Of a stretch of DNA of 64,000 nucleotides, positions 1 through 15,233 are shown one piece after another. Location: IMG/VR virus record IMGVR_UViG_3300017971_000265, positions 13,933 through 77,932 of that record. One strand, given 5' to 3'. The notes below the pieces were generated by a model that saw only the letters and a program-made list of their open reading frames with translations, had not been told where the DNA came from and did not search any database. The number at the start of each line of letters is the position of its first letter. Positions within the stretch are counted from its first letter, which is position 1. The position numbers were made by a program, and so were the translations under genes. The stretch comes from a virus.

Positions 1-2
1 AT

Positions 3-473
3 CGGCCCGAAGAAGAAGATCCATTTTTTGAGCTTTACAAGATGCAGGAGCATTTTAAGCTGATGGATCAGCGGATCGCGATGGAGACAGCTACGGAGAA
101 GAATCTTACTAAATTATTTAGTACGACACATAAGGAGTTTTTGACAGCGGCACGCCTGGGGGATCTCATTATGATGAAGAAAGAAAAATTGGGGCTCTTA
201 CGGAAGGAGAGAGGTGGTGTACGTCAGCGTGTTGGCAGTGGCGCTCCTGGCCGATTAGATTTGTCCGAGATAGTTTCAAATCCAGAATCGAGACAGAGGG
301 TGTTGGGTTTTGTAGAGGCCCTTTTTGGTGATCCCGAGCTTTTGGAGGAAATAGGGGGGAAGAAGAAAGAGGCAGAAGAGAAGCCGAAAAAAGTTAGGTC
401 GAAGAGAGAGAAACGGAAACGAAGAATTTCACCGCGTCCTTCGAGCGGAACATTTGGCAAGCGTAAGAGATGA
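3..473 (+). CDS. 5'-truncated protein upstream of terminase; possible terminase small subunit
   Basis: Frame is open from base 3 (RPEEEDPFFELYKMQ...); stop overlaps the terL start (ATGA). Function inferred from position only. Confidence 0.4.
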   Translation, partial: RPEEEDPFFELYKMQEHFKLMDQRIAMETATEKNLTKLFSTTHKEFLTAARLGDLIMMKKEKLGLLRKERGGVRQRVGSGAPGRLDLSEIVSNPESRQRVLGFVEALFGDPELLEEIGGKKKEAEEKPKKVRSKREKRKRRISPRPSSGTFGKRKR

Positions 474-3400
474 TTACTTCTACACGGGGGGGTCGTCACC
501 GGTCCAAGCTTACTCTTATGGAGAAGCGTCAAGATCTGGCTCGTCAGTGGGAAAGTATGTCGGAGATAGAGAAGGCTGGTGTTCGGCACATTATAGATGA
601 GGTTGATTTTCTCGGCACAGAGAATGATGTGGGGTTTGAGACGCTTGCTGAAATGTTTAGCTGCTCAGAGGTTTATCACGGTATAGCGGGGGCACATTAT
701 GTGGACCGTATCGCATCGGTAGAGGAATTTGTGTTGGATAATTACTATTTGGGCCATGTGGGGAAGTATCTATGGCCCAAGTGGTTGGCAGATTTGCAGG
801 AAGTATTTGCTGGTCGATATACCGAGGTGATTGTTACGGGGGCAATTGGCTCAGGGAAATGCCTAGATGGCAAGACTGAATTCTATGATCCGGTGAGGGG
901 ATGTAGGTTAGTTTTAAAAGAGGTTTGTGCGCGTGATGACGTCCATGTTGTAGCTTTTGATCAAGAAACGAACACGACTGTGACCAAAAAGGCTAAGGTG
1001 AGATTATCTGGAGAAAAATATCTGGGCACACTTACTCTTGCTAGTGGGAAAGTGATCAGATTAAGTCCAGATCATCCAGTTCTTACTGAGAATGGATGGA
1101 GCCCTATTGGTGATATAACTATGGGGGAGCTAATAGCAACGGCGCGTTCAGTTCCAGCGCCGGATTTTTGTTATGATGTTTCAGATGAAGAGGTAGAGTT
1201 TGTTGCTTTTCTTCTTGCAGAAAAAAGAGGAGTACTTGCAGAAAAAAGAGGAGTACTTGCAGAAAAAAGAGAAGTAGGTGCAACTGAAAACATTGGCAAA
1301 ACGATTTTTCATCCACGGGGGACGAGATGGGTTCAGCATAAGTATGGTTTGCATGAGACGTCTCATAGAAAGCGTATACCTCCTGAATTTTATGGTTTAT
1401 CAGATGAGCAACTGGGACTTTTCCTTAATAGAATATGGGCTTGCGATGGAAGTATTAATATTGCAGCTATAGCTACGTTTGAGATTTGTTTGGCGAGTGA
1501 GTTGTTTATTCGTGATATTCAGCAACTACTATTGAGATTTGGTATTCATTCTCAACTTCAAAAAGGAGAGGGAAGTGAAGATTGGCAGTTAACTATTTCT
1601 GGGGCCGAAAACATCGGCCCATTGTGTGCTGCATTGGGGCCTGTCTTGGGAAAGGAAAGTGCATGGAAAGAGGCCGCTGAGTGGGCAAGGGTTAATCAAG
1701 ACAATTCCAATATTGAACTCACTAGAATCGGGATGGATTTTGAGTCGCCAGAGCGATGTTCTTGGTGGACTGGCGTGTTTTGGGATCGGGTAGTTTCGTT
1801 TGATATAGATAATGAGATGAGCCCTGTCTATGACGTAGAAGTTCCTGGGCTTAAAAATTTTGCGCCGCATAGTGTTATTGTTCACAATACTACTTTCTCT
1901 GATATTGGTATTGCGTACATGTTCTATGAATTGTGCATGTTGAGAGATCCACAGGCGACGTTTGGACTGATGCCAGGGTCGGAAATTGTTTTGGTCTGTT
2001 TCAACCGTGATAAAAAACTAGCTAGAGATGTTACGTTTGGGGGGTTGAAGCGCAAATTAGAGGTTAGTCCTTTTTTTAAAGAGTTAGGATGCAAGTTTGG
2101 TGGTTCTGAGTTGGTTTATCCAGATAAGAATATACGGATCATTGCTGTTTCGGTTCGTTCTGCCGACGCTTTGGGCAGGGATGTGTTTGGTGGAGTTATT
2201 GATGAGACAGAGTTTATGGAGGGGAGCATTTTGAAAGGGGGAGGTGGAGTAGCAGCGCCTGGGGAAAAACCATTTGCTGAACTTTTGCATGAGTCGATTA
2301 CGCGACGTATGAAGTCTCGTTATGAACGTGCAGGTGCTTTGCCTGGAAAGCTCTTTCTTTCATCGTCGGCGCGACATAAACAATCGTTTACGAATCGCCG
2401 CATCGCGAGTGCTGCGAATGATCCGGGAATTTTTTGTCGAGACTATGCCATCTATGACGTCGCTCCTGCTGAGCGATTTTCAAAGAAGCATTTCTGGGTC
2501 ATGGTTGGGACCGAGCGTATCAAGCATAAAATATTTCATAGGCGGGAATTTAGAGCGCTAGGGGGTGAGGGTAGGAAACAACTGGAGGAAAAGGGTTGTC
2601 GATTTATCAAGGTGCCGGATAATTTTCGGCCTGATTTTGAGAGAAATATTGAGGATGCTATTCGGGAAATTGCCGGAGTAGTGACGGTTGTATTATCTCC
2701 GTTCATCCAGATGAGAGATCGCATCTATGATGCCATTGATCCGACACTATTTCATCCCATGGGGTCTGAGGTGTGGCGTACCGATGAGGCGACTCAAATA
2801 GATTGGCGACGATTGGTAAAACTGTATGAGCGGCGTGTTGGGCCGGGTCGGTTAGTAGAAGAATTGAGGCCCATTCGGCACCCTGATGCTACGCGGCACG
2901 CGCATATTGATATCAGTTTGGGAGCAAGCGATCCGGCAGGAATATGTATTGCTCACGTGGTTGATACGATAGACGTCGAGAGGAGGACAGAGGGGGGGAG
3001 GGAAGTTGTAGAGCAGGCTCCTTTGATTGAGGTGGATCTGATGTTGCGAATACTTCCTCCCCTTAACGGGGAGATCGATCTGGGATCTATTCGTGCCCTG
3101 GTCTATGATTTTGTAAAGCATGGTTATAATTTAACTTTTGTCTCGATGGATCTTAAGTTTTTGAGTGCTGATACCCTACAACAATTTGAGCATCAGGGAA
3201 TTGATACTGAGGTTATCAGTGTGGACAAGACTATTCAGCCCTATACTTATTGCAAAACTGCCCTATATGAGGGCCGGTTGAGTCTCTATGAATACCCCAT
3301 TGTTTTACAGGAACTGGAGCAGTTACAGAGAGATGAAATAAAACAGAAAGTTGACCACGTGCCGGGTGGAAGTAAAGATGTATCTGATAGCCTGGCAGGC

Positions 3401-3586
3401 GTGGTTTTTAGTCTTTCCACCAAGCAGGCATATCGTGCTCCGATTATGAGAGGCATTAGTGAGTACGAGGATCATGATAAGAGTTCGGAGTGGATACGCA
3501 AGACGATGCATCGCACAGGGGAAGAAGCGCCTCAAAAAGTTGGTGACGTCCCAGAAGACGGCAAGCCCATAATATTTACCGGGTAA
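470..3586 (+). CDS. terL: Terminase large subunit, intein-containing
   Basis: Walker A VTGAIGSGK/T (split by the intein), Walker B GGVIDETE, coupling motif LSSS, RNase H-like nuclease AHIDIS...SKDVSDSLAG. Confidence 0.93.
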   Translation: MITSTRGGRHRSKLTLMEKRQDLARQWESMSEIEKAGVRHIIDEVDFLGTENDVGFETLAEMFSCSEVYHGIAGAHYVDRIASVEEFVLDNYYLGHVGKYLWPKWLADLQEVFAGRYTEVIVTGAIGSGKCLDGKTEFYDPVRGCRLVLKEVCARDDVHVVAFDQETNTTVTKKAKVRLSGEKYLGTLTLASGKVIRLSPDHPVLTENGWSPIGDITMGELIATARSVPAPDFCYDVSDEEVEFVAFLLAEKRGVLAEKRGVLAEKREVGATENIGKTIFHPRGTRWVQHKYGLHETSHRKRIPPEFYGLSDEQLGLFLNRIWACDGSINIAAIATFEICLASELFIRDIQQLLLRFGIHSQLQKGEGSEDWQLTISGAENIGPLCAALGPVLGKESAWKEAAEWARVNQDNSNIELTRIGMDFESPERCSWWTGVFWDRVVSFDIDNEMSPVYDVEVPGLKNFAPHSVIVHNTTFSDIGIAYMFYELCMLRDPQATFGLMPGSEIVLVCFNRDKKLARDVTFGGLKRKLEVSPFFKELGCKFGGSELVYPDKNIRIIAVSVRSADALGRDVFGGVIDETEFMEGSILKGGGGVAAPGEKPFAELLHESITRRMKSRYERAGALPGKLFLSSSARHKQSFTNRRIASAANDPGIFCRDYAIYDVAPAERFSKKHFWVMVGTERIKHKIFHRREFRALGGEGRKQLEEKGCRFIKVPDNFRPDFERNIEDAIREIAGVVTVVLSPFIQMRDRIYDAIDPTLFHPMGSEVWRTDEATQIDWRRLVKLYERRVGPGRLVEELRPIRHPDATRHAHIDISLGASDPAGICIAHVVDTIDVERRTEGGREVVEQAPLIEVDLMLRILPPLNGEIDLGSIRALVYDFVKHGYNLTFVSMDLKFLSADTLQQFEHQGIDTEVISVDKTIQPYTYCKTALYEGRLSLYEYPIVLQELEQLQRDEIKQKVDHVPGGSKDVSDSLAGVVFSLSTKQAYRAPIMRGISEYEDHDKSSEWIRKTMHRTGEEAPQKVGDVPEDGKPIIFTG
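860..1888 (+). mobile_element. Intein (343 aa) in the terminase Walker A, with degenerate LAGLIDADG domain
   Basis: Starts CLDGKT, block B LSPDHPVL, ends VYDVEV...IVHN followed by Thr; removal restores GSGKTT. Confidence 0.93.
1214..1276 (+). repeat. 3 x 21-bp tandem repeat (LAEKRGV)
   Basis: cttgcagaaaaaagaggagta twice plus one copy with a single mismatch. Confidence 0.95.
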
Positions 3587-3597
3587 AGGAGAAAGTC

Positions 3598-6500
3598 ATG
3601 ACTCTAGTTGTAGCACAAAATATCAGGGATCAACTGCTTGGAAGGGGCGAGGGGAAGTATAGCCTCGATACTATAGAGGACTATTTTCTTGAGGCGATGA
3701 ATCTGATGTTGGGAGATCAGGATTTTGTGTCGGTTGGAGAGAATGTGTGGCAGGTAGAGGGTGAGACTCCGATTACCGTAGAGGTATTCAGAGTATTTCA
3801 CGAGGCTACCGGACAAGATATCATCAATAGGGTAGTAATTGTGGCGGGCGACAATAGGAAAGAGGAGCGATGGGCACTTCCCCCGGCGCGTATTACCGAG
3901 AAGTTTTATTTGGATCATCTCAATGCGATCAAGGATTATGTTTCGCAATGTGTGATGGGCAGCATCATAGGGGAAGACGTCGAGCTGGATGAAGCCACTT
4001 ATAAACCAGGCAGCGTGGCTCACTTTCTTATGGTGCTGACGAGCAAGGTAATCCAGGCGGATCAGCGTCAAGAGAAGGCGGACATTAAGCGTGGAATATC
4101 GGTGAATATTTATCGCCTTGGACATTTTTTAAAAGCTATAAAGGATGTTCAAAAGGGTGTTTCTCGGGTGATGGGTAGCACTGAAAAGAAAGACTTATTG
4201 GTTTTGAAACAGCGAATCAGCCGAGCTTTTACTCCGCAGTTTTCTCCTTCCAAGTTTGTACAAAAAGCAATCGATAAATACCTGGAGACAGGTGCGCTTC
4301 CGAAGATCTCAGGCAAGCGGGGAACGAAACCTCCGTGGGAAGAAGTGGATGTAGAACATGATGACGTCGAGTTGGATGAAGGTTTGGCCAAGGCACCTTG
4401 GGAGAAGGGTGGTCCTTCATATGAGAAGCTTGGATATACAGTATTGGCAAAGGTAAAGGGGGTTTTTAAGACAGACAATGAGCAGGCGGCAAAACGGGTG
4501 GCTCGTGAGAAAGAACTCTCCTATGGATTATCAATCTATGGTTCGTGGTATATAGGCAGGCCGTATCAGCTAAAAAAGCTTGGTGTGCCTAGATGGCAGA
4601 TAAGAGAAGACGTTTCATCTCTAAGGAAAAGAGACGGCGTGTCTTTATTTGTTGGGGAAGGGATAGATCTAGATGAGGCTATTCAGTGGAAAAAGAAGAA
4701 GCAACCAGTGACAGGACTCGATAAGTTTGTTGCGGGCGATGTGCGTAACAAGATGGTACTTTCTCCAGCACTTGCTGGGGATGGCCGGATGAAGGGGTGG
4801 AGGCTCCAGTTTCCTAGTGGTGTCGTTATAAATCATCATATTGATGTTTCCGATTCTCATGGGGCGAAGCGGTGGGCGGAGAAAATAATTGCTACACGCA
4901 GAGAAGACGTCGAGTTGGGTGATACTGGATCAGTGGGGGATATTCAGTTGATGCGAGACGAGCTTCTGGGAGATATCGATGAGGCGTGTAAGACACCGGG
5001 CATGAAGAAGCGTTCTAAGGGGAAGGGTCGTGGCTTGGCCAAGGGCAAGGGCAGGGGGCCGTTGGGTATTCCCATAGGAGACAAGGTTGAGTTGGAAGAC
5101 GTCGAGATGAATGAGGCAAAAGAGTTGTCGCATAGAGAGGTGGAAAAAATAATTACATCCTATGCTTCGGAGTTGTTACCTCTTTTTGCAGACAAATGGA
5201 GTAGGTGGCCACAGGGCCAAGCGGCCAGGGAGATTTACAACGTTTTGATGAAAAAACATAAATTTTATTCTAGCTCAAAGATGAGTAAGGAAGCTGGTGA
5301 TATAAAGAATGTTGCTAGGACAATTTTGAAGCGGGGTGGTATCAAGGAAGACGTCGGGTTGGACGAGGCCCGGCGTAGGAAGAAGATGACCCCGCGAGTC
5401 GATCCCGACATCAAGAAGATTCGGCCAGGCACGGTGCCCAAGGAGATCACGCTGTTTGGTGGCAAGAAGCACGCGGTGGACCCCAAGGCGTGGAAGCACT
5501 TCGTGAAGGAGGCCAAGAAGAACAAGAAGTGGGCCGAAGATCACGAGTACGCGAAGAACCCGGACGAGTGGCCTGCCAGCGGCATAAGCAAGGACATGCT
5601 CAAGGAACGGCTCAGAAAATCGGTCGAGCAACTGGCCCTCGATTCGTATCGGTATGCCTATATGCGGTCGCACGGCGTGGCCAAGGCGTGGGGCTCGAAT
5701 ATGGCTCTCGATCCTGCCGCCAAGAGGAATTGGGAGAAGATCACAGGCAAGAAGATCGAGATCCCGATGGACCCGGCTGAGAAGAAGGTGCTGGACGCGC
5801 TACGGAAGAAGCGCAGGAACGAGGGTGTAGACGTCTCTGGGTTGCGCGATGACCTTCTGGAGTGCGGGTGCGAGGACGAACTGGACGAGGCCAAGGGCTT
5901 TACCAAGGGGCAGCGCGTATCGACCCCGCTGGGACCGGGTGACGTGGCGTATCAGCGAATGGGTCCTCCGAACTACAGTGAGCCCGTGTCCGTGTCGGTG
6001 GTGATCGACAAGAAGCGCAACAAGCCGGGCTATACCGGGACGATGTTCAAGGCGAAGGACGTGAAGCCGCTCAAGGAGGATGTCGAGCTGGACGAGGGCA
6101 TGACCAAGCACACCGTTTTCAAGTTCGGATCGCTGGATGATTTGTGGGATGCTCACGATGCTCTGCGAGAGGCTGGCATGAATGTCAGCCGGTGGACTGG
6201 TGGCTGGAACACCGGGATGCGTGGTCCAATCGCCGCGTGGGTTCACCAGAAGTCGAAGACTCTGGCATTCGGTTCTCCGTCCGTAGCGAGCGAGGCCAAG
6301 AAGATCCTGTCCGCGAAGAAGATCAAGATCGCCAAGGAGTTCAAGGAAGACGTCGAGTTGGATGAGGGCGATTCCAATTATGCGCGTTCTGAACTTGGCT
6401 ATTTGAAAAAAGGTGAGATATGGAGCATACAGATCAGGGATGACAGTGGTGGTGCAACAAAATGGATGGATATAAACAAAGAGGTAATTTCTGCGTTGAA

Positions 6501-8583
6501 AGGGAAGGGTCGGGGGACTTACGCTGCGAAGGAGATGGGCCGTTTGAAAAAAGGTGAGATATGGAGCATGCAGATCAGGGATGACAGTGGTGGTGCAACG
6601 AAATGGATGAACGTTAGTCCTGGGAGAATCAAGGCGCTTATTTCGATATGGAGCAAGCAGGGTCAACGAGAAGACGTCGAGTTGGACGAGGCCAATAGAG
6701 GTTTGAAGTCACAGGCAAATTCTATTCTAGTGACGGCTCAGGAGATGGAGACAGATCCAGATTATTTGAGCAGAAAGCCTGTGTTGGTGAAGCCTTATGC
6801 GGAGAACATGAGGGGGCATGTCAAGGAGTTGTTGGCTCGAAGCAGAGATCCATTGGTAGAAGATATTGCCAATTCAATTAGCCAGATTCGACAGAAAATG
6901 GAAAAGATGGCTAGGTATAGTGGGGGGCGCATTCCTGCCGAAAGGTTTTCGGAGTTTTTTATAAAATTAAAAGCGCAGGCCAAGGGGATACTCTCTGCGC
7001 TGAGAAGCAAGTCGGTGGCGGAAGGCATATTAGATGAGGCCAAGAAGACCTACGTGGTGAACGTTAAGAAGTATTTCCGGGGCATCACGGATCGTGGCGC
7101 GGTGGTCAAGGCTAGGAGTGAGAAGGAGGCTATTGCCAAGGCTGCGAAGCAGCTTGGTAAGAAACCGAGTTATCTGGAGATTGAGAATGTGTACGAAGAT
7201 GTCGAGATGAATGAGGGCGAAACTCTTTTTATTTCTCCGACTAAGGAGGGGAACAAAAAGTGGCAGATCCTTCACAGCACTAGCGGGATGGTCGGGACAG
7301 GTGGCCAGATCATCAAGATAGGGGGCAAGAAGGAAATCAAGGCGCTGGCGGCCAAGCTCGCGAAGAAATGGAAGGCCGAAGTCAAGGAACTGGCTGGCGA
7401 AGACATCGAGATGGAGGCTGGGGACGAAATTCACGCTCTCAGGGACGAGCTGCTTGGGGGCGTAGATGAGGCGTGCAAGACACCGGGTATGAAGAAGCGT
7501 TCTAAGGGGAAGGGTCGTGGCTTGGCCAAGGGCAAGGGCAGGGGTCCGTTGGGTATTCCTGTTGATGAGTTGGAAGACATCGAGCTGGATGAGGGCCGCA
7601 AGGTCAAGCAGTTTGAGTTGGGTGACATTGTACGTCATACCAAGAAGTTCTTGCGAAACACGGGTCAATACACTGGAGTACCCAGGAGTGGAAAGGTTGT
7701 TGGTTTTATTGATCTTGCTGGAAAGAAACTACCAAGGGTGAAATGGGATGATGGTAATGAGGCTCCCATTCAGCCGGAAAATATCGAAATACATCCGAGG
7801 CACAGGAGGCGTATCGAAGACGTCGAGTTGGATGAGGCTAAGACCATTGCTCAGTTTGATCCAGTGAAGGTGGGGACAAAGGTCAAGTTGGTTCGTGGCC
7901 TGTTTGATATGGAGAAAGATCTTTTGCGTAAGAAAAATGTGCATTTCACTTTCGTTCGGTGGGCGAAGCCTCACGGGCATGCTGTGGTGAAGGATAGTAG
8001 TGGAGCGAATTGGCATGTGCATCCCGAGTCTCTTATTCTTGCCGAAGATGTCGAGTTGGATGAGGCTACGCCAGCTGGTGGTGCGGTAGCACTGAAAGCA
8101 ATAGCGGCACTAATGAAGGATTTCCAATACGCTCCCAAGGAATCGAACAAGTATTATGCGGCGTTTGTATATCGGGGACGAGGGGGTAATCAATCTAGGA
8201 TACTCGCGAAAGCTGAGAGTGCCTTGGCTGATGCTGGTTTTGACGAAGCGTCTTTTGGCACGTCGGGGGCTGGGCTTATGGCCGAGACGAGGAGGGGCAA
8301 GGTCTGGGTCAATATATATCTACCAGGACTAAGGACAGAAGACGTCGAACTGGATGAGGCTGGTGTAACTGGTTATTCAATTATGCAGCTTTATAATATT
8401 TTGGCCCGGACGGTTAAGAAGGGAACTGTAAAAGAGATCGAGATGATTCATAACGAGTTAAAGGCCAAGGGGGCTGATATGCACCTGGTTGACCTAATTA
8501 TCAGATCGGGAGGAAAGCTTCCTGGTCGTGTCAAAAAAATAGCATCTTTGAGCGAGATGAGAAATGAGCTGCTGGGCAGCTAG
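3598..8583 (+). CDS. Modular polyprotein-like protein: about 18 small basic modules joined by EDVELDE-type linkers; putative precursor of internal head proteins
   Basis: SD AAGGAG; 17 linker copies; lies between terminase and portal. ORF is secure, function inferred. Confidence 0.7.
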   Translation: MTLVVAQNIRDQLLGRGEGKYSLDTIEDYFLEAMNLMLGDQDFVSVGENVWQVEGETPITVEVFRVFHEATGQDIINRVVIVAGDNRKEERWALPPARITEKFYLDHLNAIKDYVSQCVMGSIIGEDVELDEATYKPGSVAHFLMVLTSKVIQADQRQEKADIKRGISVNIYRLGHFLKAIKDVQKGVSRVMGSTEKKDLLVLKQRISRAFTPQFSPSKFVQKAIDKYLETGALPKISGKRGTKPPWEEVDVEHDDVELDEGLAKAPWEKGGPSYEKLGYTVLAKVKGVFKTDNEQAAKRVAREKELSYGLSIYGSWYIGRPYQLKKLGVPRWQIREDVSSLRKRDGVSLFVGEGIDLDEAIQWKKKKQPVTGLDKFVAGDVRNKMVLSPALAGDGRMKGWRLQFPSGVVINHHIDVSDSHGAKRWAEKIIATRREDVELGDTGSVGDIQLMRDELLGDIDEACKTPGMKKRSKGKGRGLAKGKGRGPLGIPIGDKVELEDVEMNEAKELSHREVEKIITSYASELLPLFADKWSRWPQGQAAREIYNVLMKKHKFYSSSKMSKEAGDIKNVARTILKRGGIKEDVGLDEARRRKKMTPRVDPDIKKIRPGTVPKEITLFGGKKHAVDPKAWKHFVKEAKKNKKWAEDHEYAKNPDEWPASGISKDMLKERLRKSVEQLALDSYRYAYMRSHGVAKAWGSNMALDPAAKRNWEKITGKKIEIPMDPAEKKVLDALRKKRRNEGVDVSGLRDDLLECGCEDELDEAKGFTKGQRVSTPLGPGDVAYQRMGPPNYSEPVSVSVVIDKKRNKPGYTGTMFKAKDVKPLKEDVELDEGMTKHTVFKFGSLDDLWDAHDALREAGMNVSRWTGGWNTGMRGPIAAWVHQKSKTLAFGSPSVASEAKKILSAKKIKIAKEFKEDVELDEGDSNYARSELGYLKKGEIWSIQIRDDSGGATKWMDINKEVISALKGKGRGTYAAKEMGRLKKGEIWSMQIRDDSGGATKWMNVSPGRIKALISIWSKQGQREDVELDEANRGLKSQANSILVTAQEMETDPDYLSRKPVLVKPYAENMRGHVKELLARSRDPLVEDIANSISQIRQKMEKMARYSGGRIPAERFSEFFIKLKAQAKGILSALRSKSVAEGILDEAKKTYVVNVKKYFRGITDRGAVVKARSEKEAIAKAAKQLGKKPSYLEIENVYEDVEMNEGETLFISPTKEGNKKWQILHSTSGMVGTGGQIIKIGGKKEIKALAAKLAKKWKAEVKELAGEDIEMEAGDEIHALRDELLGGVDEACKTPGMKKRSKGKGRGLAKGKGRGPLGIPVDELEDIELDEGRKVKQFELGDIVRHTKKFLRNTGQYTGVPRSGKVVGFIDLAGKKLPRVKWDDGNEAPIQPENIEIHPRHRRRIEDVELDEAKTIAQFDPVKVGTKVKLVRGLFDMEKDLLRKKNVHFTFVRWAKPHGHAVVKDSSGANWHVHPESLILAEDVELDEATPAGGAVALKAIAALMKDFQYAPKESNKYYAAFVYRGRGGNQSRILAKAESALADAGFDEASFGTSGAGLMAETRRGKVWVNIYLPGLRTEDVELDEAGVTGYSIMQLYNILARTVKKGTVKEIEMIHNELKAKGADMHLVDLIIRSGGKLPGRVKKIASLSEMRNELLGS
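4981..7560 (+). repeat. Two near-identical copies of a ~93-bp module (4981-5073 and 7468-7560)
   Basis: Both encode EACKTPGMKKRSKGKGRGLAKGKGRGPLGIP. Confidence 0.95.
6403..6609 (+). repeat. Internal duplication within one module (6403-6468 and 6544-6609)
   Basis: LKKGEIWSxQIRDDSGGATKWM twice. Confidence 0.9.
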
Positions 8584-8593
8584 AGGAGGATAG

Positions 8594-9892
8594 ATGTCGC
8601 GACTAGAGTCGATTCGGGCCTTACGGGATGCTGTTGTAGAAAACAAAAGGGTTGGAAATCAGTCTCGTCTTGAATCGGGAGAGAAGCCTCGGTCTAGGAT
8701 CAGGTTGCCAATTTTGCCAACTAAGAAGAAAGAATTGAGGCAGAAAAAAATTGAGTGGAGTGGCATTGATTTCCGTCAATGGCTTACTGACGTCAACGAA
8801 GCGGTAGATTCTATTACTGGGATGGACATGGATATTTTGCCAGAGATGCCTTGGCAGAGCTGGTTCAAAGAAGGGATGGAGCCAGAGGATGCGGCAAGGC
8901 TTGCGCTGGAAGCTGCAGAGTTAGGGGATGATATCTCTGAAGAGGAGGAGGAGTTGAATGAGCGTGGCTTTTTTAGGCCGTCGTATCAAAAATGGATCAG
9001 CAAGCTCGATAAGCGATTAAGAAAAAAGGGAGGGGCTACTCTTTCAGCTCTCAAAAGGGCGGGTCGAGTCTCTAATTCAACTCTCCATTCTATATTTATG
9101 AGCCAGGCCACGGCAGAAATGGCTGCTCGGATGCTGCTTCAGGCCGTAGGAACTCCGATGGAAGATGAAGCAGTGTCTCTTCGGAGGCGCAATTTTGTAT
9201 CGGAGAACCAGATGGAGGATTCTTTTGATCAATTGCGTGACCTAATGGATGAGTTTGGGATTGGTACTAGCCGTCCCCCTGTGACGACACGGGATATTGG
9301 CGAACCAGAGGAAGGGCTCGATGAGGAAAATACATCTTCTTCTCAGGAAACCCATGAGCTTCCTCAGAAGGCCCAGAGTCCTTCTCAGTTGTCCCAAGAC
9401 GTATCAAGTGCCATTGCTGCCGTAAGGGCTGTGGAGGAGAAGGAGCGGGCACACAAGGATGCTCAGAGTGAGATAGAAGAGGCTTCTGTTCAAGGTGGAG
9501 ACTATGGAAGGTGGGGGCCAGCTACGACAGCGGCTGGATCGGCTGGCAGATCCTTAGCGTCGGCCATTGCTAAGGCGAGTGGTGAGAGCTATCATTTTCA
9601 TCAGGAAGGGATGGCTCAAAGTGCGGATGTGGGATCGGATCTTTGGTTTGAGATCGAGCCAAAAAATCCTAAGAGCCCTATTTACTATTTGGGTATCAAG
9701 ATAAAAGGGGACAAGGAAGATCCGCGATGGGATGTTATGCTTAAGAAGGGTGCTGGGCTGGGATCAGCTACTTCGGTTGGGTCGAAACGCGGCATAGAGA
9801 CGTCTAAGTTAAAGGGGGCGATTAACGAACTCAAGGCTGGGTTGAAACAAAAAACGAAAAAGAAGGATGGTGATAAAGATGCGGCCAGTTAA
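8594..9892 (+). CDS. Hypothetical multi-segment protein, possibly a second processed head protein
   Basis: SD GAGGAG; basic segments follow ELNE/R and EIEE/A; internal SLRRRNFVSE motif. Confidence 0.6.
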   Translation: MSRLESIRALRDAVVENKRVGNQSRLESGEKPRSRIRLPILPTKKKELRQKKIEWSGIDFRQWLTDVNEAVDSITGMDMDILPEMPWQSWFKEGMEPEDAARLALEAAELGDDISEEEEELNERGFFRPSYQKWISKLDKRLRKKGGATLSALKRAGRVSNSTLHSIFMSQATAEMAARMLLQAVGTPMEDEAVSLRRRNFVSENQMEDSFDQLRDLMDEFGIGTSRPPVTTRDIGEPEEGLDEENTSSSQETHELPQKAQSPSQLSQDVSSAIAAVRAVEEKERAHKDAQSEIEEASVQGGDYGRWGPATTAAGSAGRSLASAIAKASGESYHFHQEGMAQSADVGSDLWFEIEPKNPKSPIYYLGIKIKGDKEDPRWDVMLKKGAGLGSATSVGSKRGIETSKLKGAINELKAGLKQKTKKKDGDKDAAS

Positions 9893-10175
9893 AGTGAGAC
9901 TTCCGATGCATCACAAAGATCCTGAGACGGGTCAAATAAAAAGCACCTATGCGACCTATCGGGGCTATGAGGCACAAGTCACGGAGGGAGAACGGCAGCG
10001 ATTCCATACGGCACGGCTGTTCTATTTGAAAAACACCAAGGATGAGGATTGTGTATTCAGAGTCAGGGGCAACGGCATCTATGAGATGCAAAAGGTTGGT
10101 CTCAATCGCGTCTTAGCCAGTGGGACAATGATGGATTCGACACCTCCAGAAATTATTCCGCAGATGGGGCAGTAG
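9867..10175 (+). CDS. Hypothetical protein (start may be 9879)
   Basis: Fills the gap before the portal in the operon. Confidence 0.55.
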   Translation: MVIKMRPVKVRLPMHHKDPETGQIKSTYATYRGYEAQVTEGERQRFHTARLFYLKNTKDEDCVFRVRGNGIYEMQKVGLNRVLASGTMMDSTPPEIIPQMGQ

Positions 10176-10178
10176 CGA

Positions 10179-12926
10179 ATGTCTAAGATCTCGCAGGCAT
10201 CGGCCCAATTTATTCGGAATATTTTTGGGCGAGAGAGAGCAAAGAGCGATCTGGCAATTTCGTCTAGGGAGTTGATTAGAACGGCCCAGGGTGGGATGTA
10301 TGGATCTGGAATAGATGTGGGAGGTATCGGAGGTATTGGAGAAGCCCTAGCTCTCGATAGACGTCTCCTCTATCGTTACGGTGACTATGAGGAGATGGAT
10401 GAATACCCCGATATTAATGCGGCCCTGGATATTTATGCTGACGATACTACACAGGTTGATGGGGCTAAGAGACAAAGCGTGTGGGTCGAAAGTGATGATG
10501 GCAAAATCAAGGATGAACTAAATGATCTTTTTCATGAACGTTTAAAGATTGAGGAAAATATCTGGTCTATTGCGAGAACTCTCTCAAAGTACGGGAATGA
10601 TTTCGAAGAAATTGTAGTGGGGGATGGCGGGGTTGTTGATCTTAACTATTTACCTATCGCCAGTGTGAGGCGCGTAGAGGATAAGCGGGGAAACCTCTTA
10701 GGATTTGCACAGACCTTTTCTGGCAACGTGGATATATCGCCGGAACAGTTTGAGAAATTACGAATTCCCGGAGGGGGCGCTGTAGGGCCTCAAAAGGACG
10801 TCGCTGCATTTGAAGATTGGCGTGTTGTGCATATGAGATTGCTCTCGAAGCATCGTGAATCAAAGTATGGATGGAGTGTGGTAGATGCGGCGAGATGGAT
10901 CTGGAAAAGATTGATGCTGCTCGAAGATGCCGTGATGGTTTACAAGTTATGTTTGCGTGGTGACTCTCAGGTATGGACAACAAATGGTAAGAAGGCCATT
11001 AGGGATCTTGAGGAGGGGGAAGAGGTTTTTTCCTACACAAGGGATGATGTCCTGAAAAAGACTAGGGTTGTTTATAAAAAACATAATGGGAAAGATCGAC
11101 TTTTTAGGATTAAAAGCGCCCATCGTGAGCTGTTTGCTAATGCGACACACCCCGTATTGGTTGAGACAATCATTGGCAAGGGAAGTGGCAAATCGTGTGG
11201 GCGCAGGATGGATTATGTCGAGGTAAAGGATCTTAGGCCGGGTGAGCATCGTCTTGTGACTCCTTTTAGGGATGATAGTCTTTGTGAAGATATACCATTG
11301 GTCGTGCCGGAGGCGCTTGACGACAATAAGAAGTTAAATCTACCCAAAGTAGTAAATGCTGATTTTGCAAAATGGTTTGGCTTTATGATCGGTGTTGGTT
11401 TTGCTTCGGCGCGATCTTTTATCGAGGGAGATAGAGCATGTCTGGTCTACGAGGTAGGTTTTGTATCCGGGGACAAGAGGGACATTAATGAGAAGTATCG
11501 AGAACTATTTGCTTCCTTCTTTGGTGAGCCCAAATTTGTGAAAGCTGAGAGGTCCAGGCATGATTGTGTCGGTAAGTTTTTAATATCTTCGAGGGCTCTT
11601 TATGAGTTTATGATATTGAATGGATTTATGGCGCATAACAGACGGATTCCAGAATGGGTCTTTAGGTCTTCAACGGTTGTACGGGAAGCGTTCCTTGAGG
11701 GATTAGCTGATGGCTATTGCGAAGGGGGTGGGGTCAGTGTTGAACGCGGTCGTGTAAGCATATCTCTTGAGTCGTGTAATTTTGAATTGGTCAGAGATGT
11801 ACGTGAACTAGTGATGCAGCTTGGTTTTAGGGTTGGCAAGATTACGTCTAGGGAAAGACCGGATAGTTATCTTCCCGAGACGACTATTTATTGTGTGAGT
11901 TGGAGTTATGATAGGCAACCTATGACTGAGGAGCTGGAAAGTGTTGAAGAGGTCGAGGTTGATGATATTTGGGACATTGGTGTTGAGGCTGATGAGCATA
12001 ATTTCGTAGCGAATGGAATAGTTGTTCATAACACTAGGAGTCCATCTAGGTATGCTTTTTATATTGATGTGGGAAAATCGAATCGACAAGAGGCAGAGCG
12101 GTATGTGCAAGAGGTGATGCAGCGATTGAAGAAGAAGAAGTTTGTGAATCCCAAGACGGGAAAATTGGATCTTAAAAATAACCCCATGGGGATGGATGAA
12201 GACTTCTTTTTGGCAATGCGTGAGGGTAGGGAGCAGACCAGGGTAGAGTCATTAATGGGGCCGTCGTATCAGCAAGTTGACGATGTGGAATATTTTTTAA
12301 ACAAACTCTATGCTGCGATAAGAATCCCCAAGGCGTATCTGGGATATGATCAAAATCTCCCAAGCAAGGCAACCCTAAGTATGGAAGACGTCCGTTTCGG
12401 GCGGACTATTTTGCGCATTCAGCGAGAGGTGCGCAACGGGTTGAGAAAGATTGCTAATGTTGATTTAGCGGCGAGGCGAATAGATCCTGCTGCGACTAAG
12501 TTTGATATAATGATGGCTGTACCGAGTGCCATATTCGAGCTTGGCCAGATGGAGATTAGGCGAGCACGGGCCGATCTCGCCTCTATGATGGAACGGCACG
12601 TATCTCTCTACTGGATCTTGAGCAACATCTATGGTTTGGCAGAGGATGAAATAGCCGAAATAACCAAGCAGAAAAAAACTGAACAAAAGATGATGGGCGG
12701 TGCTGGAGGCGGTATGGGTGGGGGAGGTTTTGAGTCGGTTGATCCCAGGCAGGGCAGGGTAATTAGTGAGCGTGAATTGATGGATGGAAAAAAAGAAGAC
12801 GAGAAACGTGTCGAAGAGATTGTTCACAAGGTGGTAAATGATCCATCGAGTCCGTTGGGTAGGCAACTGCGAGAAACGGGACATCTCGTTCGTGAAATTG
12901 TCCATTCTCTTCATAGTTCTGCATAA
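10179..12926 (+). CDS. Portal protein (T4 gp20-like), intein-containing
   Basis: LMLLEDAVMVYKL/TRSPSRYAFYIDVG, EDFFLAMREG and KLYAAIRIPKAYL match gp20-family motifs. Confidence 0.93.
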   Translation: MSKISQASAQFIRNIFGRERAKSDLAISSRELIRTAQGGMYGSGIDVGGIGGIGEALALDRRLLYRYGDYEEMDEYPDINAALDIYADDTTQVDGAKRQSVWVESDDGKIKDELNDLFHERLKIEENIWSIARTLSKYGNDFEEIVVGDGGVVDLNYLPIASVRRVEDKRGNLLGFAQTFSGNVDISPEQFEKLRIPGGGAVGPQKDVAAFEDWRVVHMRLLSKHRESKYGWSVVDAARWIWKRLMLLEDAVMVYKLCLRGDSQVWTTNGKKAIRDLEEGEEVFSYTRDDVLKKTRVVYKKHNGKDRLFRIKSAHRELFANATHPVLVETIIGKGSGKSCGRRMDYVEVKDLRPGEHRLVTPFRDDSLCEDIPLVVPEALDDNKKLNLPKVVNADFAKWFGFMIGVGFASARSFIEGDRACLVYEVGFVSGDKRDINEKYRELFASFFGEPKFVKAERSRHDCVGKFLISSRALYEFMILNGFMAHNRRIPEWVFRSSTVVREAFLEGLADGYCEGGGVSVERGRVSISLESCNFELVRDVRELVMQLGFRVGKITSRERPDSYLPETTIYCVSWSYDRQPMTEELESVEEVEVDDIWDIGVEADEHNFVANGIVVHNTRSPSRYAFYIDVGKSNRQEAERYVQEVMQRLKKKKFVNPKTGKLDLKNNPMGMDEDFFLAMREGREQTRVESLMGPSYQQVDDVEYFLNKLYAAIRIPKAYLGYDQNLPSKATLSMEDVRFGRTILRIQREVRNGLRKIANVDLAARRIDPAATKFDIMMAVPSAIFELGQMEIRRARADLASMMERHVSLYWILSNIYGLAEDEIAEITKQKKTEQKMMGGAGGGMGGGGFESVDPRQGRVISERELMDGKKEDEKRVEEIVHKVVNDPSSPLGRQLRETGHLVREIVHSLHSSA
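10950..12032 (+). mobile_element. Intein (361 aa) in the portal
   Basis: CLRGDS...ANATHPVL...IWDIGV...HNFVANGIVVHN followed by Thr. Confidence 0.93.
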
Positions 12927-12969
12927 TCTTGTGCATTCATCGTACATACGCCAGAAGTATTCTGAACAT

Positions 12970-13036
12970 ATATCTTTAAAAAAACGTTTTATAACGTTGT
13001 GGTTTATTGACATGCACGCGATTTCATTAAGTAATG
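12970..13036 (+). promoter_or_regulatory. Possible promoter for the head genes
   Basis: AT-rich tract, then TTGACA at 13007-13012 and a weak -10 (AGTAAT) 17 bp downstream. Confidence 0.35.
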
Positions 13037-13070
13037 GAATGTGTGGTTTCATCTTTCGTTAGGAGGAGTA

Positions 13071-13985: not shown

Positions 13986-15233
13986 ATGGCAGTTCGACCT
14001 CTCGAAGAAGATTTCCAACGTTTAGGATTATCACAAGATGAAATCCGTGCGTCACTTCACAATATGGGGCGACCCTTGGGTGAAATGGCAGAGGCGGATC
14101 TCAGCGATGGTTCTGAAGAAGAGGAAGATGAGGACTTCGAGGAATCCTATCTGAGTGATCTGATAGGTCATGACGACGATGAGGCAGAGGACTTTGACGA
14201 GATGTCAGAGGAAGATTATTTTGAGTTTGTTGACAATCTTTCCGATGAAGAGTTGGATAGGTTGCTTGAAAACTCGGAGATGTTCGAGGCGAAGTTTATC
14301 AAGCTTACTCCTTTGGGTACGCGCAAGACGGCTCGCAGGAAGAGGAAGAAATGGCTCAAAACGGCTGCGGGTCAAGCCTATGCAAGAAAGCAGATGCAGA
14401 AGCGAAAGCGTCCCGCTTTTAAAAAGCAAGCCAAGAAGCAGCGTATTAGGCGCAAAAGAGCGGGTGGAGCACGTAAGGGCTATATGATGCGTGCCGGAGT
14501 CGAAAATCCTTCAGAAGGGAAAGAAGCTATACATGAAGATCTCATGGAAAGCTTGACCGATCTCGCTGAGTCGATTGAGCGTGAACCTGTTTCTCGTTTC
14601 GACGAATATGTCACAGCATTTAATGCCCTTGCTGATCTGGGAGAGCTGGGTGCTGCAAAGATCATGGACGAAGACGAAGATGCGGCAATGGACGTCTTGA
14701 ATCTGTCGCTCCAGGCAGAAGAAGTGTTGAAGCTCATGGAGGACATGGGTGGAGCGCTCGACGAAGACGAAGACGAGGTGCTGGAAGAGGCTCTGGCCCA
14801 GCTGATGGAGCTTGCCGGAGAACTCGTCGAGGAGTATGGCTTGCTTCTCGAAGATGAAGACGAGGAAGAGTATGAGGACGAGGAGCTGGAAGAAGATGAG
14901 GAAGAGATCAATCCCTTCCTAGAGGCTGCTGCTTCGCTTCGTGAAGCTAGACGTCCCCCCAAGGGCAAGAAGCGCTTTCTTCTCAATCCTAAGTCCAGAA
15001 AGGCCGTAAAGGGTCGGTCGAAGTGGAGCAAGGCCGGTGGCAATGCTAAGAGGCAGTTGGCTGGACGCAAAGATGTGAGGAATAAGCAGGCTTTGCTTGG
15101 CTATCTCAAGATGGTGAAGGCGGGCAAGGTTGCTCCTGGCCAACCCATTATGATGAGTAAAACCGGGAAGCCCCTCAGCAAGGGTGCGAGAGCTGCCAAG
15201 AAATTGGCTGCGGCCCGAAGGAAAGCTGGCTGA
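13986..15233 (+). CDS. Prohead core/scaffold-like protein with alternating acidic and basic blocks
   Basis: D/E tracts and K/R tracts; position of T4 gp67/gp68. Confidence 0.6.
   Translation: MAVRPLEEDFQRLGLSQDEIRASLHNMGRPLGEMAEADLSDGSEEEEDEDFEESYLSDLIGHDDDEAEDFDEMSEEDYFEFVDNLSDEELDRLLENSEMFEAKFIKLTPLGTRKTARRKRKKWLKTAAGQAYARKQMQKRKRPAFKKQAKKQRIRRKRAGGARKGYMMRAGVENPSEGKEAIHEDLMESLTDLAESIEREPVSRFDEYVTAFNALADLGELGAAKIMDEDEDAAMDVLNLSLQAEEVLKLMEDMGGALDEDEDEVLEEALAQLMELAGELVEEYGLLLEDEDEEEYEDEELEEDEEEINPFLEAAASLREARRPPKGKKRFLLNPKSRKAVKGRSKWSKAGGNAKRQLAGRKDVRNKQALLGYLKMVKAGKVAPGQPIMMSKTGKPLSKGARAAKKLAAARRKAG

What the first reader, a model, noticed from the sequence alone, without database searches (positions are those of the whole stretch)
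3973..8358. Linker is also a DNA repeat and modules differ in codon bias: cassette shuffling
Seen: synonymous positions in the linker are well conserved (gaagacgtcgagYtggaYgaR, with a GACGTC core). Adjacent modules switch composition near linkers: 5368-6345 and about 7260-7440 are strongly G/C-ending, while 5116-5346 and 6691-7020 are AT-richer. Inference: modules come from different donors and are gained, lost or swapped by recombination at the linker, like an in-frame cassette array.
Basis: partly seen in the sequence, partly recalled or inferred. Interest (0 to 1): 0.75.

Follow-up and report, generated by a model that had tools for sequence, protein, structure and literature searches.

The report
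Shuffled cassette polyprotein in phage head
A 1661-residue phage gene strings about 18 small unrelated proteins together with one repeated seven-residue joint that fits the cutting rule of the phage's own head protease, and related phages carry the same joints around different, reordered pieces, so the gene behaves as an exchangeable in-frame cassette array.

Summary
The ORF at 3598-8583 has 13 copies of GAAGACGTCGAGYTGGAYGAR (0.01 expected). Their codons agree more than codon usage predicts. GC3 differs between modules (p=2.6e-18). The main block, 5368-6366, has GC3 0.80 against 0.48-0.54 around it, and both change-points overlap linkers.

The gene lies between terminase and a T4-type portal, upstream of an S77 (gp21-type) prohead protease. 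Every joint reads (L/M/I/V)-x-E|(A/G), the gp21 rule, and the capsid protein has L-T-E|A. It is most likely a polyprotein cut into about 18 small, mostly basic head-internal proteins. Cleavage is inferred, not shown.

Twenty-two other uncultured polyproteins share the linker but carry other modules in other orders. Homology ends fall within 10 residues of a linker in 64-77% of cases, against 26% at random. Several modules also exist as stand-alone small genes. Cassette exchange at linkers is therefore supported. Recombination through the linker DNA itself is not shown.

The GACGTC core has another cause. GACGTC is 6.4-fold over-represented and evenly spaced across the whole genome and its close relatives. 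Distant relatives keep EDVELDE with no GACGTC at all. The scan had already noted this polyprotein and the GACGTC excess on this same DNA.

The parts
3598..8583 (+). Polyprotein ORF: 1661 aa, 185 kDa, pI 9.3, about 18 predicted products of 4.3-20 kDa
   Evidence: no Pfam or PHROG family
3598..3993 (+). Module 1: N-terminal anchor module kept in syntenic relatives. It is preceded by a short IRDQLLGRGE|G leader.
   Evidence: aligned with G002, L081 and P0024
3973..3993 (+). Linker EDVELDE|A
4360..4380 (+). Linker DDVELDE|G
4657..4677 (+). Relaxed linker EGIDLDE|A
4903..4923 (+). Degenerate linker EDVELGD. It lacks the Glu at P1 and is probably not cut. It marks the left edge of protamine cassette copy 1.
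4951..4983 (+). MRDELLGDIDE|A: second recurring motif, ending in an I-D-E|A site
4984..5115 (+). Protamine-like basic peptide, copy 1 (CKTPGMKKRSKGKGRGLAKGKGRGPLGIP), GC3 0.70
5095..5115 (+). Linker EDVEMNE|A
5347..5367 (+). Linker EDVGLDE|A; left boundary of the GC3-rich block
5368..6366 (+). GC3-rich block of three modules (7, 8, 9), GC3 0.73-0.84. Its internal linkers use GC-rich codons (5869-5889, 6076-6096).
   Evidence: Modules 7 and 8 have many stand-alone homologues. AF2 pLDDT is 91 and 90.
5869..5889 (+). Relaxed linker CEDELDE|A, preceded by LRDDLL
6076..6096 (+). Linker EDVELDE|G (GAGGATGTCGAGCTGGACGAG)
6346..6366 (+). Linker EDVELDE|G; right boundary of the GC3-rich block
6397..6609 (+). 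Tandem 141-nt duplication inside module 10 (72-nt cores 94% identical); not bounded by linkers
6670..6690 (+). Linker EDVELDE|A
7018..7038 (+). Relaxed linker AEGILDE|A
7039..7593 (+). Second moderately GC3-rich stretch (modules 12-14, GC3 0.68-0.69). Its boundaries are less sharp.
7195..7215 (+). Linker EDVEMNE|G
7399..7593 (+). Protamine cassette copy 2: degenerate linker EDIEMEA, then LRDELLGGVDE|A, the basic peptide, and the linker at 7573-7593. Its 116-nt core is 91% identical to 4957-5072.
7573..7593 (+). Linker EDIELDE|G
7816..7836 (+). Linker EDVELDE|A
8044..8064 (+). Linker EDVELDE|A
8338..8358 (+). Linker EDVELDE|A
8557..8580 (+). C-terminal MRNELLGS: the same motif as at the N-terminus and before the basic peptides
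15233..17995 (+). Prohead protease, Peptidase_S77 (T4 gp21 type), interrupted by an intein. GELDHP|C keeps the His and GVSSRG keeps the Ser. This is the presumed enzyme that cuts the linkers.
18024..19508 (+). Major capsid protein (gp23 type). The probable maturation site F-L-T-E|A is at residues 66-70 (nt 18219-18233).
470..3586 (+). Large terminase with intein; upstream neighbour
8594..9892 (+). 432-aa protein directly downstream. Its N-terminus, MSRLESIRALRDAVVE|N, resembles the polyprotein leader.
10179..12926 (+). T4-type portal (gp20) with intein

Best explanation
The ORF at 3598-8583 is a late, head-module polyprotein.

Inferred steps. The polyprotein is built into the prohead. A conserved N-terminal module and recurring (L/M)R(D/N)ELLG helices are the candidate targeting signals. 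The phage's S77 (T4 gp21-type) prohead protease then cuts after the Glu of (L/M/I/V)-x-E|(A/G) in each EDVELDE linker. This releases about 18 small, mostly basic proteins in equal amounts, including two copies of a protamine-like peptide. These stay with the packaged DNA or are ejected with it, as T4 internal proteins are.

Shown steps. Every module is flanked by the same joint, so modules behave as in-frame cassettes. Related phages have the same linkers around different module sets and orders. Homology breakpoints sit at linkers. Several modules also occur as stand-alone genes. Here, a three-module block (5368-6366) with GC3 0.80 is delimited by two linkers. It most likely came recently from a GC-richer relative that uses the same linker; such relatives exist (G002 and G003, GC3 0.63-0.70).

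DNA conservation of the linker has two sources. First, the genome-wide selected word GACGTC fixes the Asp-Val codons. Second, a smaller residue (GAA at codon 1, GAG at codon 4, YTG for Leu) fits common descent or short-homology recombination between linkers.
For: Context: terminase, then polyprotein, portal (PF07230), acidic scaffold-like protein, S77 protease (PF03420, PHROG 207) and gp23-type capsid protein. The same gene order is found in relative G002.

Protease: it aligns with T4 gp21 (5JBL) and keeps the His and Ser motifs. The gp21 rule is L/I-X-E, with a Glu-Ala bond (PMC9026906).

Sites: 17 sites of the form [LMIV][DNE]E|[AG] give 18 products of 4.3-20 kDa, 13 of them with pI 9 or higher. 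The capsid protein site L-(T/S)-E|(A/S) is conserved in the window, G001 and G002. An S77 protease is present in 3 of 5 relative records; the other two are fragments estimated 14-21% complete.

Modules are autonomous folds: AF2 pLDDT is 91 and 90, with low-confidence linker tails.

Cassette behaviour: shared modules start 0-3 residues after a linker and have different neighbours in P0010, P0004, P0011, P0021, P0024, P0028, P0041 and L081. Among 89 HSPs between 23 polyproteins, ends lie within 10 aa of a site in 77% and 64% of cases against 26% at random, and only 7 HSPs cross a strict linker. Stand-alone homologues begin at the module start.

Composition.

Duplicated cassette bounded by linkers.

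Linker codon identity above expectation even without the D-V codons.

T4 recombination needs less than 50 bp of homology, and conserved flanking motifs are known to shuffle ORFan cassettes (PMC2839356).
Against: No cleavage, virion location or ejection has been observed; the phage is uncultured. The seven-residue conservation is much stronger than the L-x-E rule needs, so the linker may have a further or different role.

No donor or near-identical relative was found. Import of the GC-rich block therefore rests on composition alone. Public runs gave only contigs identical to the window, so no population variants were seen.

Much of the linker's synonymous conservation is explained by the genome-wide GACGTC word. 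The residue is modest when judged against the polyprotein's own codon usage (13/5000).

The duplicated cassette is highly similar only in its 116-nt core, so it is not a simple recent linker-to-linker duplication. One internal duplication (6397-6609) is not linker-bounded.
Confidence: 0.6

Rival explanations
1. Selection filter, not linker recombination. Modules are joined by rare illegitimate events anywhere. Only in-frame joins that keep a cleavable linker survive. The DNA similarity of the linkers comes from the genome-wide GACGTC word plus protein and codon constraints, and plays no part in exchange.
For: GACGTC is 6.4-fold enriched and evenly spaced genome-wide. Outside the gene D-V is coded GACGTC 39 of 125 times. 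Relatives G004 and G005 keep EDVELDE with no GACGTC. Residual codon identity is modest against the polyprotein's own usage. Linkers in other lineages are very different peptides (ERLVEG|G, RLDE|A) yet flank the same modules. Modules therefore also move between arrays without shared linker DNA.
Against: GC3 change-points fall inside or within 3 codons of two linkers. GAA, GAG and YTG choices are non-random and are shared with G001-G003. 21-27 nt of near-identity lies within the range of homology that T4-type recombination uses (PMC2839356).
Confidence: 0.25
2. The GC3-rich block is native. Its composition reflects local selection or mutation, for example on mRNA structure, translation speed or an overlapping signal, and not import from another genome.
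For: The highly expressed capsid gene also has raised GC3 (0.66, windows up to 0.78), so G/C-ending codons may be the preferred ones. No donor was found.
Against: All modules share one ORF and so one expression level. GC3 of 0.80-0.84 exceeds every other window of the phage. The switch is abrupt and coincides with linkers on both sides. Antisense ORFs have no family match.
Confidence: 0.1
3. The protein is not processed. It is one giant multi-domain virion or scaffold protein in which the acidic EDVELDE stretches are only flexible spacers.
For: Cleavage has not been observed. The motif is longer than the protease rule needs.
Against: Every spacer ends in [LMIV]-x-E followed by Ala or Gly, the same as the capsid maturation site. 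The modules are unrelated to each other and occur alone as 60-140-aa genes. A separate acidic scaffold-like gene exists at 13986-15233.
Confidence: 0.05
4. The compositional mosaic is an assembly chimera made by jumping between related phages at the repeated linker.
For: Relatives with the same linker DNA occur in the same kinds of sample. A short fragment of another polyprotein was seen in run X1.
Against: A single k=31 contig covers 5028-7518, across both boundaries, with depth 12.6 and 11.8 against 11 and 10.6 in the flanks, in two runs. Contigs break only at the 116-nt duplicated core. The two runs may be the source data, so they are not independent.
Confidence: 0.02

Closest known systems
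T4 internal proteins (IPI, IPII, IPIII, Alt) with a capsid targeting sequence cut by gp21
   Same: Small, mostly basic, highly diverse proteins encoded with the head genes. They are presumed to be built into the prohead and trimmed by an S77 protease at L/I-x-E. In T-even phages only the targeting sequence is conserved while the proteins themselves are a diverse defence set (PMC3012670; PMC9026906).
   Different: In T4 each protein is a separate gene with its own leader. Here about 18 are fused in one ORF and separated by a far more conserved seven-residue joint. There is no sequence similarity to T4 IPs. Packaging and ejection are not shown.
PeSL-mediated modular shuffling in T4-type phages (Arbiol et al. 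2010, PMC2839356; Comeau et al. 2014, PMC4122927)
   Same: A conserved short DNA element flanks each variable ORFan. Relatives differ by insertion, deletion or replacement of cassettes at these elements. The authors themselves compared the system with integrons.
   Different: PeSLs are intergenic promoter-terminator elements of about 100 bp, and mini-circles were demonstrated. Here the repeat is 21 nt, lies in frame and codes for a protease site. No recombination intermediates have been seen.
Polyvalent proteins of phages and conjugative elements (Iyer et al. 2017, PMC5512222)
   Same: Many unrelated domains in one polypeptide, encoded among late or virion genes. They are predicted to travel with the DNA and to be released by proteolysis, and show extensive domain mosaicism.
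   Different: Polyvalent proteins are defined by known enzymatic and conflict domains and usually an embedded peptidase (zincin-like MPTase, sometimes a C-terminal assemblin-like one). Here no known domain was found and no embedded peptidase. A regular repeated linker is presumably cut in trans by the prohead protease.
Multiply cleaved inner-body and ejection proteins of giant phages (phiKZ, 201phi2-1, SPN3US)
   Same: Head proteins are cut at several sites after Glu by a gp21-related protease (S/A-X-E in phiKZ), and the products stay with the DNA (PMC9026906).
   Different: Those are single proteins with propeptides removed. They are not arrays of unrelated modules with an identical spacer.
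Integron gene-cassette arrays
   Same: Variable cassettes between repeated sites next to a fixed platform. Here the fixed part is the conserved N-terminal module.
   Different: There is no integrase and no attC structure. The cassettes are translated in frame as one protein. The analogy is one of layout only.

Membership tests
Substrate of a T4 gp21-type (Peptidase_S77) prohead protease | An S77 protease with catalytic His and Ser encoded in the same head module | tested here: met
   PF03420 at 36.7 bits (cut-off 27) and PHROG 207 at 8.6e-28. Alignment to 5JBL keeps GELDHP and GVSSRG. The gene carries an intein, so activity needs splicing.
Substrate of a T4 gp21-type (Peptidase_S77) prohead protease | Cleavage motif L/I-x-E followed by a small residue at the proposed junctions | tested here: met
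   17 sites of the form [LMIV][DNE]E|[AG] at module boundaries. The rule is from PMC9026906.
Substrate of a T4 gp21-type (Peptidase_S77) prohead protease | The same motif at the capsid protein's maturation site in this phage | tested here: met
   FLTE|A at residues 66-70, conserved as L-(T/S)-E|(A/S) in G001 and G002. The position is inferred, not measured.
Substrate of a T4 gp21-type (Peptidase_S77) prohead protease | Observed cleavage products in proheads or virions | not testable with these tools
   Uncultured phage; no proteome data.
T4-type internal proteins | Short N-terminal capsid targeting sequence removed at an L/I-x-E site | tested here: inconclusive
   N-terminal leaders end in x-x-E|(G/S) in the window, G002, L081 and P0024. 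The motif (L/M)R(D/N)ELLG recurs 5 times, and a similar one opens the next gene. No function has been shown.
T4-type internal proteins | Sequence relationship to IPI, IPII, IPIII or Alt families | tested here: not met
   No Pfam or PHROG match for the whole protein or for any module.
Polyvalent proteins (Iyer et al. 2017) | Several recognised conflict or enzymatic domains (MPTase, ART, nucleases and others) in one polypeptide | tested here: not met
   No Pfam family at E<=0.001 in any module. Module 7 has no PDB fold match. Module 8 is only a generic SH3/Tudor-like barrel.
Polyvalent proteins (Iyer et al. 2017) | Embedded peptidase domain for self-release | tested here: not met
   No peptidase family found within the ORF.
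Repeat-flanked cassette arrays (PeSL-type or integron-like) | Each cassette flanked by a conserved DNA repeat | tested here: met
   13 copies against 0.01 expected. Codon identity is above simulation.
Repeat-flanked cassette arrays (PeSL-type or integron-like) | Relatives differ by whole cassettes, with junctions in the repeats | tested here: met
   Shown at protein level. GC3 change-points lie in linkers. Nucleotide-level breakpoints between close relatives could not be examined.
Repeat-flanked cassette arrays (PeSL-type or integron-like) | Recombination intermediates (circles, deletion joints) or a dedicated recombinase | not testable with these tools
2A / StopGo peptides | D(V/I)ExNPGP motif | tested here: not met
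   The linkers share only D-V-E. No NPGP follows any of them.

The most novel reading that the evidence does not exclude
The EDVELDE linker is a dual-purpose element. As a peptide it is the cutting site that releases capsid-delivered proteins. As 21 nt of DNA it is the crossover site that lets co-infecting phages trade those proteins in frame. The result would be an integron-like, protease-delimited cassette array for injected effectors, a way of organising and evolving a phage arsenal that has not been described. In this clade the same 21 nt also carries one unit of a genome-wide GACGTC lattice.
Probability: 0.35. Interest if true: 0.85.

Novelty: new variant of a known kind. Interest (0 to 1): 0.7.

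Why it matters
If the reading holds, a whole group of uncultured marine and sediment phages packages its early-acting proteins as one translation unit. That unit is cut up inside the capsid, and its pieces can be exchanged like cassettes.

This would extend the T4 internal-protein idea (diverse proteins behind a shared targeting signal) to a new gene architecture. It gives a simple sequence rule, (L/M/I/V)-x-E|(A/G) in an acidic seven-residue joint, for finding dozens of new families of probable capsid-delivered proteins. Modules 7 and 8 alone have dozens of homologues of unknown function; module 7 found no PDB fold match and module 8 is a generic SH3/Tudor-like barrel. It also offers a natural design for loading defined sets of proteins into phage heads.

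The work shows too that a synonymous-site signal in a repeat can come from an unrelated genome-wide DNA word. This is a caution for similar inferences elsewhere.

Tried and rejected
- Close relatives. blastn of the ORF against GenBank phages gave no match. tblastn gave one weak hit to module 2 in an uncultured 485-kb phage. The search for related loci with the whole protein and with modules 7-9 in IMG/VR gave no relative.
- Population variants. Two runs hold the phage, but only as contigs identical to the window. No joints or indels appeared, so the population test of breakpoints could not be made. Runs X3 and X4 gave only short unrelated pieces.
- Function of modules. No Pfam family was found for the modules or for six stand-alone homologues. 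Foldseek and VIA found nothing for module 7, and only generic small beta-barrels for module 8. Cluster look-up gave no names.
- Antisense ORFs (5800-6666, 7030-7668, 5275-5673, 3604-4125) have no family, and are expected by chance in GC3-rich DNA.
- Periodicity. A long-range fixed period of GACGTC was not significant; there is only a preferred neighbour spacing of 500-600 bp.
- Other readings. A 2A-like reading of the linker was rejected because there is no NPGP. A literature search for the motif and for prohead-protease polyproteins found no description.
- Method notes. The first boundary statistic was poorly controlled because many subjects are short; one search replaced it. A first segmentation script timed out. 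One pattern had too few fixed bases for a collection scan.
Full report
**What is there**

The window is 64 kb of a 77.9-kb linear viral record that CheckV rates about 46% complete. All long ORFs lie on the + strand. The finding sits inside one ORF, 3598-8583, of 1661 aa.

The gene order around it is as follows:
- large terminase with an intein (470-3586);
- the 1661-aa ORF;
- a 432-aa protein;
- a T4-type portal with an intein (PF07230, 8e-65);
- a 310-aa protein;
- an acidic scaffold-like protein (13986-15233);
- a Peptidase_S77 prohead protease with an intein (PF03420; PHROG 207, 8.6e-28);
- a gp23-type major capsid protein (PF07068, 4e-60).

The capsid protein is at most 33% identical to any GenBank phage. 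The phage was found in sediment and seawater metagenomes.

**Checking the observation: the linker**

The 21-nt linker pattern occurs 13 times, always in frame, against 0.01 expected. With the protein rule [LMIV][DNE]E followed by A or G there are 17 sites, and hence 18 pieces of 4.3-20 kDa. Thirteen of them have pI 9 or higher, even with the acidic tail attached.

Synonymous positions are indeed conserved. The counts are GAA 11/12, GAC 10/13, GTC 12/12 and GAG 11/12, and Leu is always YTG. Genome frequencies are 0.40, 0.27, 0.18, 0.60 and 0.48. Pairwise codon identity among the linkers is 0.727 against 0.47-0.49 in 5000 simulations, none of which reached it.

**Checking the observation: composition**

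GC3 per module runs from 0.41 to 0.84, and the heterogeneity is significant at p=2.6e-18. Elsewhere in the phage, 90-codon windows average 0.46 (sd 0.08) and never exceed 0.78.

The best segmentation by BIC has three parts, with GC3 0.48, 0.80 and 0.54 and breaks at codons 581 and 921. The 2-lnL support intervals are 573-587 and 913-929. Both overlap linkers, at codons 584-590 and 917-923. A random point lies within 10 residues of a linker cut only 21% of the time.

The GC-rich block is therefore modules 7-9 as one piece. Its two internal linkers use GC-rich codons, GAGGACGAACTGGACGAG and GAGGATGTCGAGCTGGACGAG. A second, weaker GC3-rich stretch covers modules 12-14 and has less sharp edges.

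The mosaic is not an assembly artefact. A single k=31 contig spans 5028-7518 at the same depth as its flanks, and contigs break only at a 116-nt internal duplicate.

**What the linker is**

T4 gp21 cuts after Glu in L/I-X-E, and the first such bond mapped was Glu-Ala (PMC9026906). The protease here aligns with the gp21 structure 5JBL on both sides of its intein. It keeps GELDHP (His) and GVSSRG (Ser).

The capsid protein has F-L-T-E|A just before the conserved mature core. Relatives G001 and G002 have L-S-E|S and L-T-E|S at the same place. Every module boundary in the polyprotein ends in the same kind of site.

Two modules were modelled from alignments. They fold confidently on their own (pLDDT 91 and 90), while their linker tails drop to about 60.

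I therefore read the ORF as a polyprotein that the prohead protease cuts into many small, mostly basic head-internal proteins. Two of these are copies of a 4-5-kDa protamine-like peptide, which is widespread in metagenomic proteins. Cleavage, packaging and ejection are inferences.

A second motif, (L/M)R(D/N)ELLG, occurs at the N-terminus, at the C-terminus and three times inside the ORF. A similar LRDAVVE|N opens the next gene. Together with the conserved N-terminal module, it is a candidate targeting signal. This is inference only.

**Are the modules cassettes?**

Word-based and full HMMER searches of metagenomic proteins, plus pattern scans of IMG/VR and JGI contigs, found 22 further polyproteins or fragments. 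Several carry EDVELDE-type linkers: P0010 (1120 aa, 7 strict linkers), P0003, P0024, P0041, G001, G002, G003, G005, L081, L084 and L078. Other lineages carry different L-x-E|small linkers, for example ERLVEG|G in P0011 and P0028 and RLDE|A in P0014.

G002 has the same gene order as the window. S77 proteases are present in the three relative records that are long enough to judge.

Shared modules always begin 0-3 residues after a linker and stop before the next one, and their neighbours differ:
- Module 12 follows module 11 here. It follows module 14 in P0004, and it precedes module 11 in P0010.
- Module 8 is followed by module 9 here, and by module 14 in P0011.

Across 89 HSPs among 23 polyproteins, the N- and C-ends lie within 10 residues of a site or terminus in 77% and 64% of cases, against 26% for random positions. 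Only 7 HSPs cross a strict linker with 25 aligned residues on each side.

Modules 7, 8, 14, 15 and 17 also exist as stand-alone genes of 60-140 aa whose start coincides with the module start. Inside this ORF, the protamine cassette occurs twice and similarity ends at linkers on both sides, although only its 116-nt core is 91% identical.

Neither is met.

**Why the linker DNA is conserved**

The GACGTC core is not special to the linker. GACGTC occurs 100 times in 77.9 kb, 6.4 times the composition expectation. It is by far the most enriched 6-bp palindrome, while eight other palindromes are absent altogether.

Spacing is more even than random. The CV is 0.66, and no one of 5000 simulations was as low. 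There is a mode at 500-600 bp (25 of 99 gaps) and few short gaps. Sites fall in all three frames and in non-coding DNA. Outside the polyprotein, Asp-Val is coded GACGTC 39 of 125 times, where about 5% is expected.

Whole-record counts in relatives are 85 (G001, 142 kb), 90 (G002, 48 kb) and 61 (G003, 36 kb). G004 (17 kb) and G005 (164 kb) have none. Yet G004 and G005 still have EDVELDE and EEVELDE linkers, coded GAT-GTT, GAT-GTA or GAA-GTT.

So the peptide motif is independent of GACGTC, and the GAC-GTC codon choice follows a clade-wide DNA word. After removing these two codons, a smaller excess of codon identity remains: 0.697 against 0.475 with genome usage (0/5000), or against 0.52 with the polyprotein's own usage (13/5000). 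G001-G003 share the GAA...GAG...CTG pattern. This residue fits common descent of the linkers or recombination between them, but does not prove either.

**Mechanism of exchange**

In T4-type phages, conserved intergenic PeSL elements flank ORFan cassettes and recombine to excise and insert them. The T4 machinery needs less than 50 bp of homology (PMC2839356). Linker repeats of 21-27 nt shared between co-infecting relatives of different GC content could act in the same way. G002 and G003 have GC3 0.63-0.70 and the same linker DNA. Such exchange would produce exactly the block seen at 5368-6366.

The alternative is rare illegitimate joins filtered by selection for in-frame, cleavable junctions. 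This cannot be excluded. It must also operate to some degree, because the same modules occur between quite different linkers in other lineages.

**Comparison with known systems, and verdict**

The system works like T4 internal proteins: a diverse set behind a shared signal, trimmed by gp21 (PMC3012670). It differs in being fused into one ORF. It resembles polyvalent proteins in layout, but it has none of their defining domains and no embedded peptidase. It resembles PeSL or integron arrays in its evolution, but in frame.

I found no description of such a polyprotein in the paper library. I class it as a new variant of a known kind.

Noticed in passing
window 938-63881 (whole genome G000), also G001, G002, G003: GACGTC is 6.4-fold over-represented (100 copies in 77.9 kb) and evenly spaced: CV 0.66, mode 500-600 bp, almost no gaps under 200 bp. 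It is written into coding DNA by codon choice. Close relatives have one copy per 0.5-1.7 kb, while distant relatives G004 and G005 have none. Eight other 6-bp palindromes (AGGCCT, CCCGGG, CCGCGG, CCTAGG, CGATCG, CGCGCG, CTCGAG, GAGCTC) are absent altogether. Two PF01555 N6/N4 DNA methyltransferases lie upstream of the window (G000 4692-5534 and 8917-10275).
   Followed up: partly
window 15233-17995, 10179-12926, 470-3586: The protease, portal and terminase each carry an intein. In the protease it is inserted directly after the catalytic-His motif (GELDHP|C), so the enzyme that should cut the polyprotein must first splice.
   Followed up: partly
window 8594-8650: The 432-aa protein just downstream of the polyprotein starts MSRLESIRALRDAVVE|N. 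This resembles the (L/M)R(D/N)ELLG leaders of the polyproteins and may be a shared head-targeting signal.
   Followed up: partly
window 6397-6609: A tandem 141-nt duplication inside module 10 (72-nt cores 94% identical) gives two copies of a KKGEIWS(I/M)QIRDDSGGATKWM unit. It is not bounded by linkers.
   Followed up: no
window 4984-5115 and 7471-7593; proteins P0005-P0009, P0057, P0061: The basic peptide C(K/D)TPGMKKRSKGKGRGLA(K/R)GKG(R/K)GP is conserved at 60-90% identity in many otherwise unrelated metagenomic proteins. Some of these are not polyproteins, and the peptide is sometimes present in two or three copies.
   Followed up: partly
G000 1-13932 (upstream of the window): Five copies of CTTGGGGACGTCGAGCC(C/T), none inside the window, share the 9-mer GACGTCGAG with the linker. 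They probably belong to the dispersed CRISPR-like arrays that another note reported.
   Followed up: no
L081 (Ga0316195_10002263) and L084 (Ga0180437_10032184): Two further metagenome contigs carry polyproteins with the same linker DNA and an even denser GACGTC load: 19 copies in 9 kb and 10 copies in 5.3 kb. Both were chosen by a pattern that contains the word, so the counts are biased upward by 1-3.
   Followed up: partly
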